A stretch of DNA of 17,283 nucleotides from a virus (taxonomy: Duplodnaviria; Heunggongvirae; Uroviricota; Caudoviricetes). The stretch spans positions 1 through 17,283 of IMG/VR virus record IMGVR_UViG_2548877009_000010; one strand, written 5' to 3'. Positions 9,001 to 12,000 of the stretch are shown one piece after another. Within the stretch, counting starts at the first letter, position 1. The number at the start of each line of letters is the position of its first letter. The position numbers were made by a program.

Positions 9001-12000
9001 AGGGCGTCTGATTCGCGTGAATCAGGGCGGTAAATTTCGTTACTGCATACCGGGCGCTGATTTACCGGCAGAGCCGGAAGCTGCATCCGTAGCGGAAACC
9101 GATGGTAAAGCCTTTCCTCAGCCAGCAGGTGTTGCGTTACCAGTCCAGGAAACGACGACACAGGAAGAAATGAAAACAGAAATCGTGGAAGACATTGTGA
9201 AGTTACAGCCATCGGTCACCGAAACGAAAGCAGATGACCTGATTCTACCATCGCTGCATGTGGCTAACCGCGAGCTGCGCCGGGCAAAAGGTCAGGTTCA
9301 GAAGTGGGAGCGAGTCTGCGCCGCGCTGCGGGAGCTGAATAAGTGCCGGGATATTCTCCGGGATATTACCGCCACCAGAGAACAGCAGCGGTGAGTGGGT
9401 GGAAGACGTGGTGCCGGGCTGAAATTCTGATACTCCGGCAGTGCGCGGGAACAATGAAGGTAAAAAGCATTGGCGCGCTTATCGGACGAACTGAAGCGGC
9501 AGTGAGAACGAAGGCACGGGAGCTGGGCATCAGCATGATGTTACGTGGTGATTTTCACCCGTCGGCAAAATATTCACAGCGTGATATTGAGCTGGCGCGG
9601 CAACTGCATCAGCGCGGTGTACCCCGACGGGAAATTGCCGAAAAGTTCGGAATGAAGTTGCGTGCAGTGAATAACTACGTTTATTTCGACAGGAGGGTTC
9701 AGGCGTGAGGGTGAGAATTTATATCGCCGGTCCAATGACGGGATATGAAAATTTCAACCGCGAGGCATTTCACAGGGCGGAAGAAGCACTGAAACGGGAA
9801 GGGCATACCGTCTTAAACCCGGCAGTACTTCCGGACGGGCTGACACAGCCGCACTACATGGATATTTGCATGGCAATGATTCGTTGTGTGGATGCGGTTT
9901 ATATGCTGAATGGCTGGCAGCGGTCAGCGGGCGCTAAGGCAGAGCTGGCACTGGCGGAGAAACTGGGGCATGCGGTGATTTATCAGGAGGTGGCTCAATG
10001 AGAGAGGTTAACTATGAGGCGCTTCGTGAGGCAGCACAAAACTATCAGTCGACGCTGGCGTGGTATCAGGCTATCCCGGACAGCCCAAATGCTGAACGGG
10101 ATTGTGATGCGGCTCTTGCTGCGTTTAAGCGTCACATCCGTCATCGGGAAGCGGATATTATCGCTGATTTGCTGGATGGACTGGAAGAAGCAAAATCACA
10201 ACTCAACGAGCAACGTGAGTATTACGAAGGTGTTATCTCGGATGGGAGTAAGCGCATTGCTGAACTGGAAGCGCGGGAAGTTCAATTACCGACTCGCTAC
10301 GACCTTCGATATGGACACCCGATAAATGCAGATGAGCGACAAGTCATGATACCTAAAGAAAATGGCAGTTGGCTTTACCTGATTGACCTAGAACACGCAT
10401 TACGCGTCGCTGGCATTCGCATCAAAGGAGAGGAGCATGGAAATAAAACCAGAAGATGAGTTAAGTAATATTGTTTTATTTCCGGTAAAAGAGGATGACC
10501 CACGTAATCAGGTTAATTTTCTTTATGAGCCATCGGAAAGACCATACTGCCATCACGCCTCTGTCCGGGTTGACGAAAAAGAGCGTCAGGTCCGCTGTAA
10601 AATCTGCGGTTCAGTTGTGGAGCCGTTTGACTGGATGCTCTCTGTGGCGAAAAGAGAAACCAGACTGGCAGATGATGTAAAGCTATTGCGCCAGGAGGAA
10701 CAGGAAAGGCGAAAAAATATAGAAAAGTTAATTCAGATTGAGCGTAACGCGAAAGCGCGGATACGCAGGGCGTCAAAATCCAGAACTGAATAATTAAATT
10801 CAGCACTGTTAAAAATTTAATCCTTAACCGGAGGGATTCCTGCACCCTCAGAACATAAGGAGACCGCCTGAAAGGGTGGTAATGAAAAATGACTGAATTA
10901 ACCAAAGAGCAATTAATCAAGGAAGCCAAATTAAAAATAGCGGTTGCGAACTGTTACCCTAATTCAGAGATGGCCAGGGTAGAGGGTGAGCTATTCAAAA
11001 TTGCACTGGCATCGCTGGAAGCAGAACCGATAGCGTGGGAATGCGGTGAAAACATAATCCTGTTTAACCCTGACACAGTTGAAGCATACGCAAAACGTGC
11101 GGAAATATCACCTAAACCACTATTCTCCGCGCCGCCAGCGCTGGTAGTGCCTGATAAGTTGCCGCGTGAATACAGAAACGGTTGGCCTCTTGCGTATAGT
11201 GATTATGCTGAAGGCTGGAACGACTGCCGCGAAGCCATGCTTCAGGGAGATAAATCATGATTAATCGTATCAAGCTGGAGCACATCCTCGAATATACCAG
11301 GCAGCAGAGGCATATTGGTCAGCATTGTAAAATTCCACCAGGAGATATGGTTGAAATCATGGAGATTGCCATGCGCAAGGCTGGCAATTCTCCGGTAACT
11401 CCGGATGGTTGGATAAGCTGTAGTGAGCGAATGCCGCCAGTTGGTGTTGATGTACAACTGTTTGTGTCCAGCACGGGTGAACAGTTTACAGGTTTTAACC
11501 TGGATAATACGGGTGACTTCCAGTATGCGCAGTGTTTCGGTGCGCCCATCGTGTGTGAAGCCACACACTGGATGCCGCTACCAGAACTGCCGAAGGAGGT
11601 GCGCCAATGAGCTGGCCTGAAGCCTTCTCAAATGTTGGTATTGCAATGGCGGTGGCGCTGGTTGTGTATTCGATTTGCCGCTGGGGATAAATTGCTGAAA
11701 AAAGATCCCGACACACACATGAGTCGGGATCTTTGATTTATATAGCCTACGAATCCGCCAGTAAGAGAGGGGGCGGACGGTTTATTCTAATACTGGAATT
11801 ATGTGGGGAAAAGTTTATAAGAAATCGGTTTCATAACTTTGTCCGCCATGATAAATACCTGCGATAAAGACTTTATTGCCATCAACGGCAAAAGCAATAA
11901 TCGTTCTGTGGCGGAAGTGAGTTACCCGCATTCCCTGTCGAATATCATCGCGTTTATTGCCCCGATGCGGGAATGTGGAAAACCCATCAAGATAATCAAG

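What the first reader, a model, noticed from the sequence alone, without database searches (positions are those of the whole stretch)
9391..11690. Chain of seven small genes linked by stop/start overlaps between the replication genes and the terminator
ATGA/GTGA overlaps or short overlaps join most successive ORFs (HTH protein, DUF4406, 153-aa, zinc-ribbon, 123-aa, DUF551, 27-aa peptide); only a ~95-bp gap before the 123-aa ORF breaks the chain. None has an assigned function. Stoichiometric co-expression suggests they act together; this position is a known hotspot for host-takeover and anti-defence cargo.
Basis: inference. Interest (0 to 1): 0.45.

Follow-up and report, generated by a model that had tools for sequence, protein, structure and literature searches.

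The report
Nin-type accessory gene chain, lambdoid prophage
The seven tightly overlapping small genes are the shufflable "nin-region" accessory segment of a lambda-like E. coli prophage, a layout known since 1982. They are not a fixed seven-part machine, but the array does end in a widespread, mostly unannotated 27-residue membrane peptide.

Summary
Seven same-strand ORFs (9391-11690) are joined by GTGA, ATGA, a 23-nt overlap, ATGA and ATGA, with one 95-nt gap, and a strong hairpin follows.

The segment lies between the replication genes and antiterminator Q, like lambda's ninR "chain of interlinked genes" (Kröger & Hobom 1982). Lambda has 7 four-base overlaps, 3 longer overlaps and one gap in 11 junctions.

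The seven genes do not travel together:
- 80 distinct versions of this slot show 29 presence/absence patterns, and only 4 hold all seven.
- Only 44 of 3790 matching E. coli genomes hold the whole cassette.
- In other genera the DUF4406 and zinc-ribbon genes have entirely different neighbours, still joined by 4-nt overlaps.
- Similarity breakpoints fall at gene boundaries.

Smaller modules are real:
- The HTH gene always follows DUF1627.
- The Ea22 coiled coil and the zinc-ribbon protein occur as natural fusions.
- The 123-aa and DUF551 genes share one domain pool (K-12 YfdT/YfdS).
- The 27-aa peptide (dN/dS 0.20) nearly always follows that pool and usually precedes hok/sok or parDE.

DUF4406 folds like a nucleoside 2'-deoxyribosyltransferase. 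Verdict: an ordinary member of a known kind, of low interest.

The parts
8660..9394 (+). DUF1627 gene. It is the conserved left border of the variable slot, sits where lambda has ren, and its stop overlaps the g1 start (GTGA).
   Evidence: Pfam PF07789 E 1e-81. It lies upstream of g1 in 68/68 g1-anchored contexts. Weak hit to phrog_142 'Ren-like exclusion protein'.
9391..9708 (+). g1, a small HTH DNA-binding protein of 105 aa counted from GTG 9391.
   Evidence: phrog_323 'transcriptional regulator' E 9e-27. Sub-threshold Pfam hits to Sigma70_r4_2, HTH_23 and HTH_7. The N-terminal extension is conserved in frame.
9705..10001 (+). g2, DUF4406. A minimal protein with the nucleoside 2'-deoxyribosyltransferase / DNPH1 / MilB-like fold.
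   Evidence: PF14359 E 4.5e-37. AF2 model pLDDT 91. Foldseek against PDB gives 2a0k, 8pqt, MilB and DNPH1 at TM 0.70-0.77. Y6, D53 and E80 are invariant.
9998..10459 (+). g3, an Ead/Ea22-family protein with the family's N-terminal and coiled-coil part and its own C-terminal domain.
   Evidence: PF13935 E 6e-12, phrog_250 E 1e-41. Family described in PMC10834534.
10437..10793 (+). g4, a C-x-H...C-x-x-C zinc ribbon followed by a long, highly conserved basic helix. In other genera it is a nin-region gene next to NinH, RusA, YbcO and Q.
   Evidence: phrog_1621 E 7e-56. C38, H40, C54 and C57 are invariant. The model shows a hairpin plus a 55-residue helix. Neighbourhoods. Fusions to the Ea22 N-terminal part, P0231 and P0234.
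10794..10888 (+). 95-nt intergenic gap, a mosaic joint.
   Evidence: 211 similarity breakpoints fall at 10830-10889. No promoter-like or terminator-like site. The fold is not significant, z -1.8.
10889..11260 (+). g5, a 123-aa Eaa/YfdT-like protein whose N-domain is often fused to DUF551.
   Evidence: phrog_5117 E 9e-51, phrog_60. Natural fusion of g5 to DUF551, P0074. 38% identity to K-12 YfdT over 47 aa, E 5e-7.
11257..11610 (+). g6, a DUF551 protein (YfdS-like).
   Evidence: PF04448 E 5e-13, phrog_924.
11607..11690 (+). g7, a conserved 27-aa single-pass hydrophobic peptide. Its start overlaps the upstream stop (ATGA) and it has a strong Shine-Dalgarno sequence (AAGGAGGTG).
   Evidence: The ORF is intact in 84/94 and 96/105 distinct contexts. 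Third-position variation and dN/dS 0.20. Its DNA is present in 1642/5426 complete E. coli genomes. It is unannotated in the records viewed.
11701..11734 (.). Bidirectional intrinsic-terminator hairpin. It starts 10 nt after the g7 stop and travels with the parDE module.
   Evidence: dG -19.7 kcal/mol, z -5.6. The same g7-hairpin-ParE junction occurs in phage ArgO145. The hairpin is present only in contexts that carry ParDE.
11815..12377 (-). Convergent ParE/ParD toxin-antitoxin module. It occupies the toxin-antitoxin slot that holds hok/sok in most relatives.
   Evidence: PF05016 and PF03693. Downstream of g7, hok/mok is found in 57/98 contexts and ParDE in 8/98.
12513..14900 (+). Conserved right flank: 92-aa ORF, DUF968, RusA and antiterminator Q.
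   Evidence: Pfam PF06147, PF05866 and PF06323. PGAP annotation.

Best explanation
This is the nin-region equivalent of a Rac/Qin-type lambdoid prophage of E. coli: the non-essential, highly mosaic accessory segment of the rightward early operon.

Position: it lies between the replication genes (a DUF1376/DnaT O-like gene, a lambda-P-like gene, DUF1627) and DUF968-RusA-Q.

Expression (inferred): the genes have no promoters of their own. They are read as one polycistronic message after repressor loss. They are packed stop-on-start, each with its own Shine-Dalgarno sequence, so ribosomes re-initiate from gene to gene.

What the packing means: it is a generic property of such operons, not evidence of a complex. 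Individual genes or 2-3-gene blocks are exchanged by recombination at gene and domain boundaries. The exchange even crosses between the leftward (exo-xis/ea) and rightward (nin) early arms of different phages.

Modules within the array:
1. DUF1627 plus an optional HTH gene (g1).
2. A free-standing DUF4406 enzyme-like protein (g2) with the nucleoside 2'-deoxyribosyltransferase/DNPH1 fold. It probably acts as an N-glycosidase or transferase on a nucleoside or nucleotide.
3. A pool of shuffling Ea22-type modules: coiled-coil scaffold (g3), zinc ribbon plus helix (g4), Eaa/YfdT-like N-domain (g5), DUF551 (g6). These most likely modulate host replication or the lysis-lysogeny decision, as reported for lambda/Stx Ea22 and for CPS-53 YfdS/YfdT.
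4. A terminal 27-aa membrane peptide (g7) coupled to the last Eaa/DUF551-type gene.

The terminator hairpin and the convergent parDE are an insertion in the toxin-antitoxin slot that follows g7.

Shown: anatomy, mosaicism, linkage statistics, fold of g2, coding status of g7.
Inferred: transcription from PR, translational coupling, biochemical and physiological roles.
For: Position between the P-like gene/DUF1627 and DUF968/RusA/Q. This matches the published description of lambda ninR (PMC7166090, PMC10695390).

The junction pattern mirrors lambda O-to-Q: 7 of 11 four-base overlaps, overlaps of 34, 11 and 23 nt, and one 73-nt gap. This is the 'chain of interlinked genes' of Kröger & Hobom 1982, cited in PMC7166090 ref 18 and PMC4824070 ref 45.

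No promoter-like site lies inside 9391-11690.

Mosaicism:
- 44 of 3790 E. coli genomes and 0 of 392 phage records hold the whole cassette.
- 29 patterns in 80 slots.
- Asymmetric neighbour counts, for example g4 has g3 upstream in only 15/77 contexts and g2 has g1 upstream in only 10/71.
- 52% of similarity breakpoints lie within 30 nt of a gene boundary against 24% expected.
- Four-base overlaps are retained with alternative partners.

Distant relatives:
- DUF4406 sits next to DUF977/DUF4752, Dam/DUF1382, an Rv2179c-like exonuclease, or integrase.
- g4 sits between RusA, NinH or YbcO and a small ORF plus Q.

Pieces of the cassette lie in the int-proximal early-left arm of Stx phages.

Domain pool:
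- Ea22N::g4 fusions P0231 and P0234.
- g5::DUF551 fusion P0074.
- Ea22 C-terminal-domain swapping, including DUF551, is described in PMC10834534.
- YfdS or YfdT are interchangeable in PMC4776307, and g5 resembles YfdT.

g2 fold. g7 coding status and linkage.
Against: Among near-identical relatives g2-g3-g4 are strongly linked (g2 to g3 65/72, g3 to g4 61/71). A functional block cannot be excluded from recent-ancestry data alone.

Natural fusions argue that some pairs do interact or act in cis.

None of the seven is a homologue of a lambda nin gene.

No N-like antiterminator was recognised in the window. So read-through of the hairpin towards Q is unproven, and the array might be a terminated unit here.

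The samples are IMG/VR fragments chosen by similarity to the window genes, so frequencies are descriptive, not population estimates.

There are no expression or phenotype data.
Confidence: 0.8

Rival explanations
1. One reading: the seven proteins are made in fixed ratios and work together as one multi-component system, for example a host-takeover or anti-defence machine.
For: Stop/start overlaps at 5 of 6 internal junctions. No internal promoters. The g2-g3-g4 and g5-g6-g7 blocks recur in close relatives. Fusions link g3 with g4 and g5 with g6.
Against: Only 4 of 80 slot variants hold all seven genes, and there are 29 combinations. Each gene occurs without each of the others, apart from g3 (always with g2) and g6 (always with g7) in this sample of 80 slots. 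Neighbours are completely different in other genera. The same overlap style joins unrelated genes in lambda nin.
Confidence: 0.04
2. The array is an anti-defence island: independent small inhibitors of host immunity carried in a phage accessory region. DUF4406 would destroy or modify a nucleotide signal or substrate, and the other genes would act as protein inhibitors.
For: The slot fits the accessory-region definition of variable genes between conserved flanks (concept in bioRxiv 10.1101/2023.04.06.535777). Early-operon position. g2 has a nucleotide N-glycosidase/transferase-like fold with invariant Y6, D53 and E80. Lambda ren, at the same place, counters Rex exclusion (established knowledge).
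Against: No similarity to any characterised anti-defence protein was found, although no anti-defence library was available and PADLOC holds defence models only. The only phenotypes published for these families concern lysogeny (Ea22, PMC10834534) and replication initiation or stress tolerance (YfdS/YfdT, PMC4776307). Known nin genes act mostly in recombination and DNA transactions.
Confidence: 0.15
3. Only the distal part is a true functional module. An Eaa-N/DUF551-family protein and the 27-aa membrane peptide g7 would work as a pair, for example as membrane anchor or regulator, possibly in concert with the toxin-antitoxin locus that follows. The rest would be unrelated cargo.
For: In a g7-anchored sample, 75/85 upstream genes belong to the g5N/DUF551 pool. 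All are joined by ATGA, although the scan pattern itself began with ATGA; the unforced sample is. 65/98 contexts have hok/mok or parDE directly downstream. g7 is under purifying selection, dN/dS 0.20. The first base of its second codon is invariant, which preserves the upstream stop.
Against: No fusion of g7 to DUF551 was found; the 121-aa proteins that clustered with it lack the peptide. K-12 CPS-53 has YfdS/YfdT without g7. The adjacency could reflect a shared recombination module rather than shared function. There is no expression evidence.
Confidence: 0.3

Closest known systems
Lambda ninR region (ren, ninA-ninI between P and Q): the 'chain of interlinked genes' of Kröger & Hobom 1982
   Same: Same position (after the replication genes, before Q) and same strand. 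Small ORFs joined mostly by 4-nt stop/start overlaps, with a few longer overlaps and a single gap. Dispensable accessory content and intrinsic terminators inside the region (PMC10695390, PMC4824070). The g4 family lies among NinG, NinH, RusA, YbcO and Q in other genera.
   Different: None of the seven genes is homologous to ren or ninB-ninI. The content instead resembles the exo-xis/ea region (Ea22, DUF551). A convergent parDE module interrupts the operon. No N-like gene was recognised.
Lambda/Stx-phage exo-xis (ea) region with ea22
   Same: g3 is an Ead/Ea22 family member. DUF551 and the g4 zinc ribbon occur as alternative C-terminal domains on the Ea22 coiled coil (PMC10834534). Homologues of g4-g7 lie in the int-proximal early-left arm of Stx phages.
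   Different: Here the genes sit in the rightward (PR) arm rather than the leftward (PL) arm, and the domains are split into separate ORFs.
E. coli K-12 CPS-53 yfdQ-yfdR-yfdS-yfdT cluster
   Same: YfdS carries DUF551 like g6. YfdT shares the g5 N-terminal domain. The two are adjacent and overlapping, lie next to a nucleotide-metabolism enzyme (YfdR), and are functionally interchangeable in multicopy inhibition of replication initiation (PMC4776307).
   Different: The order is reversed (DUF551 first). There is no g7 homologue. The enzyme is an HD-domain 5'-deoxynucleotidase, not DUF4406.
Phage accessory regions in the sense of Silas et al. (bioRxiv 10.1101/2023.04.06.535777)
   Same: Highly variable small genes between conserved flanking genes in related phages.
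   Different: No counter-defence activity is known or was tested for any gene here.
Nucleoside 2'-deoxyribosyltransferase / DNPH1 (Rcl) / MilB-BcmB N-glycosidase superfamily (for g2)
   Same: Same Rossmann-like fold (TM 0.70-0.77). Tyr-x-Ala, Asp and Glu are invariant, with spacing like CtNDT Y7/A9, D62 and E88 (residue names from PDB entry titles).
   Different: Only 98 residues against 130-160. No detectable sequence similarity to solved members. Substrate and activity are unknown.

Membership tests
Lambda-type nin region (interlinked delayed-early genes) | Lies between the replication genes and the Q antiterminator on the same strand | tested here: met
   DUF1376/DnaT O-like gene and lambda-P-like gene upstream. 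DUF968, RusA and Phage_antiter_Q downstream.
Lambda-type nin region (interlinked delayed-early genes) | Series of small ORFs joined by stop/start overlaps | tested here: met
   Four 4-nt overlaps plus one 23-nt overlap within the chain, and GTGA to the upstream DUF1627 gene. Lambda comparator.
Lambda-type nin region (interlinked delayed-early genes) | Homology of the genes to lambda ren or ninA-ninI | tested here: not met
   No Nin or Ren Pfam family hits g1-g7. Only positional equivalence holds. g4 relatives neighbour NinG, NinH and YbcO elsewhere.
Lambda-type nin region (interlinked delayed-early genes) | Transcribed from PR as delayed-early genes, and dispensable for plaque formation | not testable with these tools
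   Only indirect evidence: no internal promoter-like sites, and variable presence in relatives implies dispensability.
   29 patterns in 80 slots with 4 complete. Different neighbours in seven other genera.
Phage accessory region | Variable gene content flanked by conserved genes in related phages | tested here: met
   DUF1627 and DUF968 flank slots of 2.2-6.8 kb with diverse content.
Phage accessory region | Genes antagonise host defence | not tested
   No anti-defence library was available. PADLOC (defence models) gave no hits.
Ead/Ea22 family (g3) | Pfam PF13935 match above threshold, with N-terminal segment plus coiled coil and a variable C-terminal domain | tested here: met
   46.7 bits against a cutoff of 27. 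The shared 'RIAELEARE' joint occurs in the fusions.
Nucleoside 2'-deoxyribosyltransferase-like superfamily (g2) | Fold | tested here: met
   AF2 model pLDDT 91. Top PDB matches are all NDT, MilB or DNPH1.
Nucleoside 2'-deoxyribosyltransferase-like superfamily (g2) | Catalytic Glu nucleophile with Asp and Tyr | tested here: inconclusive
   Y6, D53 and E80 are invariant with matching spacing, but no residue-level structural alignment was available. The profile search against PDB did not align.
Genuine small membrane protein (g7) | ORF conserved under purifying selection, with a ribosome-binding site and a hydrophobic helix | tested here: met
   dN/dS 0.20. The 27-aa length is kept in 96/105 contexts. 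AAGGAGGTG lies 6 nt upstream, and residues 9-23 are hydrophobic.
Genuine small membrane protein (g7) | Translated in vivo | not testable with these tools
   Needs ribosome profiling or epitope tagging.

The most novel reading that the evidence does not exclude
The 27-aa peptide g7 would be a real, widespread and essentially unannotated small membrane protein. Its DNA is in about 30% of complete E. coli genomes, at up to 7 copies each. It would be an obligate translationally coupled partner of Eaa-N/DUF551-family proteins at the distal end of lambdoid early operons, sitting immediately before a toxin-antitoxin slot (hok/sok or parDE). It could anchor or regulate the DUF551-type protein at the membrane. 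Alternatively, by ending translation 10 nt before the hairpin, it could gate read-through into the downstream module.
Probability: 0.3. Interest if true: 0.45.

Novelty: new member of a known kind. Interest (0 to 1): 0.2.

Why it matters
The result mainly warns against a tempting inference. In lambdoid early operons, ATGA-type overlaps mark compact, re-assortable cargo, not protein complexes.

It also gives a cleaner map of this slot:
- Which pairs are really linked: DUF1627-HTH, Ea22 scaffold with zinc ribbon, YfdT-like with DUF551, and that pool with a 27-aa peptide followed by a toxin-antitoxin module.
- A fold-level function for DUF4406.
- A conserved small ORF that current annotation pipelines miss in pathogenic E. 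coli prophages and Stx phages.

Tried and rejected
- **Pas sRNA lead.** A 2026 preprint links PasA/PasC to DUF1627 and RusA neighbourhoods. On reading it, these sRNAs lie next to the esterase/holin genes downstream of Q, not at g7 or the terminator.
- **Rfam.** Only three tRNAs at 16561-16809, nothing in the cassette.
- **PADLOC and NCBIfam.** No hits for g1-g7.
- **PDB by sequence.** Nothing for g2, g4, g5 or g6, nor for the g2 profile.
- **g4 model.** Only a generic zinc ribbon (TFIIB, E 0.27), no informative match.
- **The 95-nt gap as a tR2-like terminator or promoter.** No such site, and the fold is not significant.
- **g7::DUF551 fusion.** The 121-aa proteins that cluster with g7 do not contain the peptide.
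- **The search for related loci with the 27-aa peptide.** Replaced by a degenerate DNA pattern scan.
- **Naive ORF-family clustering of the slots.** It mis-called antisense ORFs, so it was dropped in favour of tblastn presence/absence.
- **N-like antiterminator in the window.** None recognised.
- **Peptide sequence in the literature library.** No hit.
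Full report
**Observation.**
- g1, HTH: 9391-9708
- g2, DUF4406: 9705-10001
- g3, Ead/Ea22: 9998-10459
- g4, zinc ribbon: 10437-10793
- g5, 123 aa: 10889-11260
- g6, DUF551: 11257-11610
- g7, 27 aa: 11607-11690

The junctions are GTGA, ATGA, a 23-nt overlap, a 95-nt gap, ATGA and ATGA. Each start has a purine-rich Shine-Dalgarno sequence, read directly. Examples are AGGAGG before g2 and g3, GGAGAGGAG before g4, and AAGGAGGTG before g7.

The g1 start deserves comment. PGAP annotates a shorter protein. The 21 codons from GTG 9391 are conserved in frame with synonymous or conservative changes, and one variant lacks the internal ATG. It makes g1 overlap the stop of the upstream DUF1627 gene (GTGA), so the chain is one gene longer than described.

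g1-g6 score as coding. The 34-nt hairpin at 11701-11734 is strong (dG -19.7 kcal/mol, z -5.6).

**Context.** The cassette is 99.8% identical to a prophage of E. coli O111 strains.

The window is a Rac/Qin-type lambdoid prophage. In order it carries:
- integrase, excisionase and an 823-aa exonuclease
- a cI-like repressor, a P22-Cro-like gene and a YdaT-like gene
- a DUF1376/DnaT O-like replication gene and a lambda-P-like gene
- DUF1627
- the cassette
- convergent ParE/ParD
- a 92-aa ORF, DUF968, RusA and antiterminator Q

[quoted passage not shown] That region can be deleted without loss of plaque formation (PMC10695390).

**Precedent for the overlaps.** The lambda record shows 11 junctions from O to Q:
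- 7 are four-base overlaps
- 3 are longer overlaps (34, 11 and 23 nt)
- 1 is a 73-nt gap

[quoted passage not shown] The window's pattern is the same kind of thing. The overlaps are real and non-random, but they are the default packing of this operon type.

**Do the seven act together?** I fetched about 80 IMG/VR loci for each of g1-g6 and mapped all window proteins onto them.

Neighbour identities are strongly asymmetric:

| Anchor gene | Neighbour | Fraction of contexts |
|---|---|---|
| g1 | DUF1627 upstream | 68/68 |
| g2 | g1 upstream | 10/71 |
| g4 | g3 upstream | 15/77 |
| g4 | g5 downstream | 9/73 |
| g5 | g4 upstream | 21/72 |
| g6 | g5 upstream | 36/75 |

Further evidence points the same way:
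- Among 80 distinct sequences of the DUF1627-to-DUF968 slot (2.2-6.8 kb) there are 29 presence/absence patterns of the seven genes. Only 4 slots have all seven.
- In complete E. coli genomes, 3790 match part of the cassette but only 44 hold at least 80% of it. All of those listed are O111 strains or close relatives. None of 392 matching phage records holds it.
- Nucleotide-similarity breakpoints pile up at g1|g2, g2|g3, just before g3|g4, at the g5 start, and at the parD-proximal edge. 52% lie within 30 nt of a boundary against 24% expected.
- Four-base overlaps are kept when the partner changes: g1 to another gene in 10 slots, g5-type to g7 in 17 slots.

The strongest linkage, g2-g3-g4, holds only among near-identical copies. 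At 60-82% identity the DUF4406 gene has different neighbours:
- DUF977 and DUF4752 in Salmonella
- a Dam methylase and DUF1382 in the leftward arm in Enterobacter
- an Rv2179c-like exonuclease in Edwardsiella
- an integrase in Vibrio

**Sub-modules that do hold.**
1. g1 is found only behind DUF1627.
2. g3 and g4 are related through domain architecture. P0231 and P0234 are in-frame fusions of an Ea22 N-terminal/coiled-coil part to the whole of g4, joined at ...AELEARE|IKPEDE.... This fits the published picture of Ea22 as a constant tetramerising scaffold with swappable C-terminal domains, one of which is DUF551 (PMC10834534).
3. g5 and g6 belong to one pool. P0074 is g5(1-118) fused to a DUF551 domain, and PHROG 60 spans both. 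K-12 CPS-53 has the adjacent pair YfdS (DUF551) and YfdT, and YfdT shares the g5 N-terminus (E 5e-7). In that system either yfdS or yfdT, together with yfdQ and yfdR, inhibits replication initiation in multicopy (PMC4776307).
4. g7 is linked to that pool, as described next.

**The 27-aa peptide.**
- Its ORF is intact in 84/94 and, in a g7-anchored pattern scan, 96/105 distinct contexts.
- Variation is concentrated at third codon positions. NG86 dN/dS is 0.20 at dS 0.51.
- Substitutions are conservative within a hydrophobic core.
- The second codon always begins with A, so the upstream TGA is preserved.
- Its DNA is present in 1642 of 5426 complete E. coli genomes, at up to 7 places each, and in 90 phage records including 933W.
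- It is not annotated in the records I opened. A few older annotations list it as hypothetical.
- In the g7-anchored sample, the gene ending in the overlap belongs to the g5N/DUF551 pool in 75/85 cases and to a g4-like family in 6/85.
- Directly downstream lies hok/mok in 57/98 contexts and ParE/ParD in 8/98, followed by the 92-aa ORF, DUF968 and RusA.

**Terminator.** The hairpin accompanies parDE. It occurs at the identical g7-hairpin-ParE junction in phage ArgO145 and is absent where hok or nothing follows g7. Its minus-strand tail is U6, while the plus-strand tail is UUUGAUUUAU.

It begins 10 nt after the g7 stop. Published work on lambda tR2 shows that a ribosome at a stop codon this close represses hairpin folding (PMC4824070). 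Partial translation-dependent read-through towards Q is therefore plausible, but this is an inference. No N-like gene was recognised. A weak promoter-like site at 12431-12460 could alternatively restart transcription.

**Individual functions.**
- **g2.** The model is confident (pLDDT 91). It matches only nucleoside 2'-deoxyribosyltransferases, MilB/BcmB CMP N-glycosidases and DNPH1 (TM 0.70-0.77). Y6, A8, D53 and E80 are invariant in 42 homologues and are spaced like Y7, A9, D62 and E88 of the Chroococcidiopsis enzyme named in the PDB titles. That equivalence is positional, not a residue-level alignment.
- **g4.** A CxH...CxxC ribbon followed by a 55-residue helix. The segment NIEKLIQIERNAKARIRR is almost invariant across genera. 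No structural neighbour is informative.
- **Others.** Nothing further was learned about g1, the g3 C-terminal domain, g5 or g6.

**Mechanism.**
- Shown: anatomy, mosaic exchange at gene and domain boundaries, the linked pairs, the g2 fold, and selection on g7.
- Inferred from knowledge of lambdoid phages: expression as one PR-driven delayed-early message, ribosome re-initiation across the overlaps, and physiological roles in host replication or lysogeny control for the Ea22/DUF551 pool.

**Rivals.** These are a seven-part complex (about 0.04), an anti-defence island of independent inhibitors (about 0.15, untested), and a distal two-gene module of DUF551-type protein plus g7 (about 0.3). The last is compatible with the main explanation.

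**Verdict.** This is a new gene combination in a well-known kind of region. Interest is low. The one item worth following is the conserved, overlooked 27-aa peptide and its fixed place before a toxin-antitoxin slot.

Noticed in passing
window 11815-12377 (- strand), with the hairpin at 11701-11734: ParE/ParD plus a bidirectional terminator occupy a slot directly after g7. That slot holds hok/mok/sok in most relatives (57/98 contexts), including phage 933W. The identical g7-hairpin-ParE junction occurs in the early-left arm of phage ArgO145.
   Followed up: partly
window 9391-9453: The RefSeq (PGAP) start for the HTH gene (equivalent to window 9427) is probably too far downstream. GTG 9391, which overlaps the DUF1627 stop, is conserved in frame, and one variant lacks the internal ATG.
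   Followed up: yes
P0231, P0234 (Ea22N::g4) and P0074 (g5::DUF551), relatives of window 9998-11610: Natural in-frame fusions show that g3-g6 are built from one pool of shuffling domains: coiled-coil scaffold, zinc ribbon, Eaa/YfdT-like N-domain and DUF551.
   Followed up: partly
window 10680-10780 (g4 residues 84-110): The C-terminal helix of g4 (LRxEExxRRxNIEKLIQIERNAKARIRR) is nearly invariant from Escherichia to Serratia, Yersinia and Erwinia. That is unusually strong conservation for an accessory phage protein, and its target is unknown.
   Followed up: no
window 8660-9394: The DUF1627 protein sits exactly where lambda has ren. It gives a weak match to PHROG 142 'Ren-like exclusion protein' (E 1.8e-5) and to winged-helix families.
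   Followed up: no
window 16561-16809: Three tRNA genes lie downstream of the DNA methyltransferase gene, in the Q-to-lysis interval.
   Followed up: no
L001 (NC_013364.1) 8282-10095: In E. coli O111:H- 11128 the same cassette is preserved at 99.8%, but an IS1203 insertion has truncated the DUF1627 gene and removed the replication genes. That copy is a decaying prophage.
   Followed up: no
window 3989-4362 (- strand): Two 62-aa ORFs joined by a 4-nt overlap correspond by position to the DUF1482 and dicB genes annotated in the related EH41 prophage. Overlap packing is therefore also the rule in the leftward operon. Not checked by a family search.
   Followed up: no
whole window: No complete E. 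coli genome holds the window as a whole; the best covers 86% at 95.9% identity. The immunity region differs between otherwise similar prophages integrated next to ompW.
   Followed up: partly
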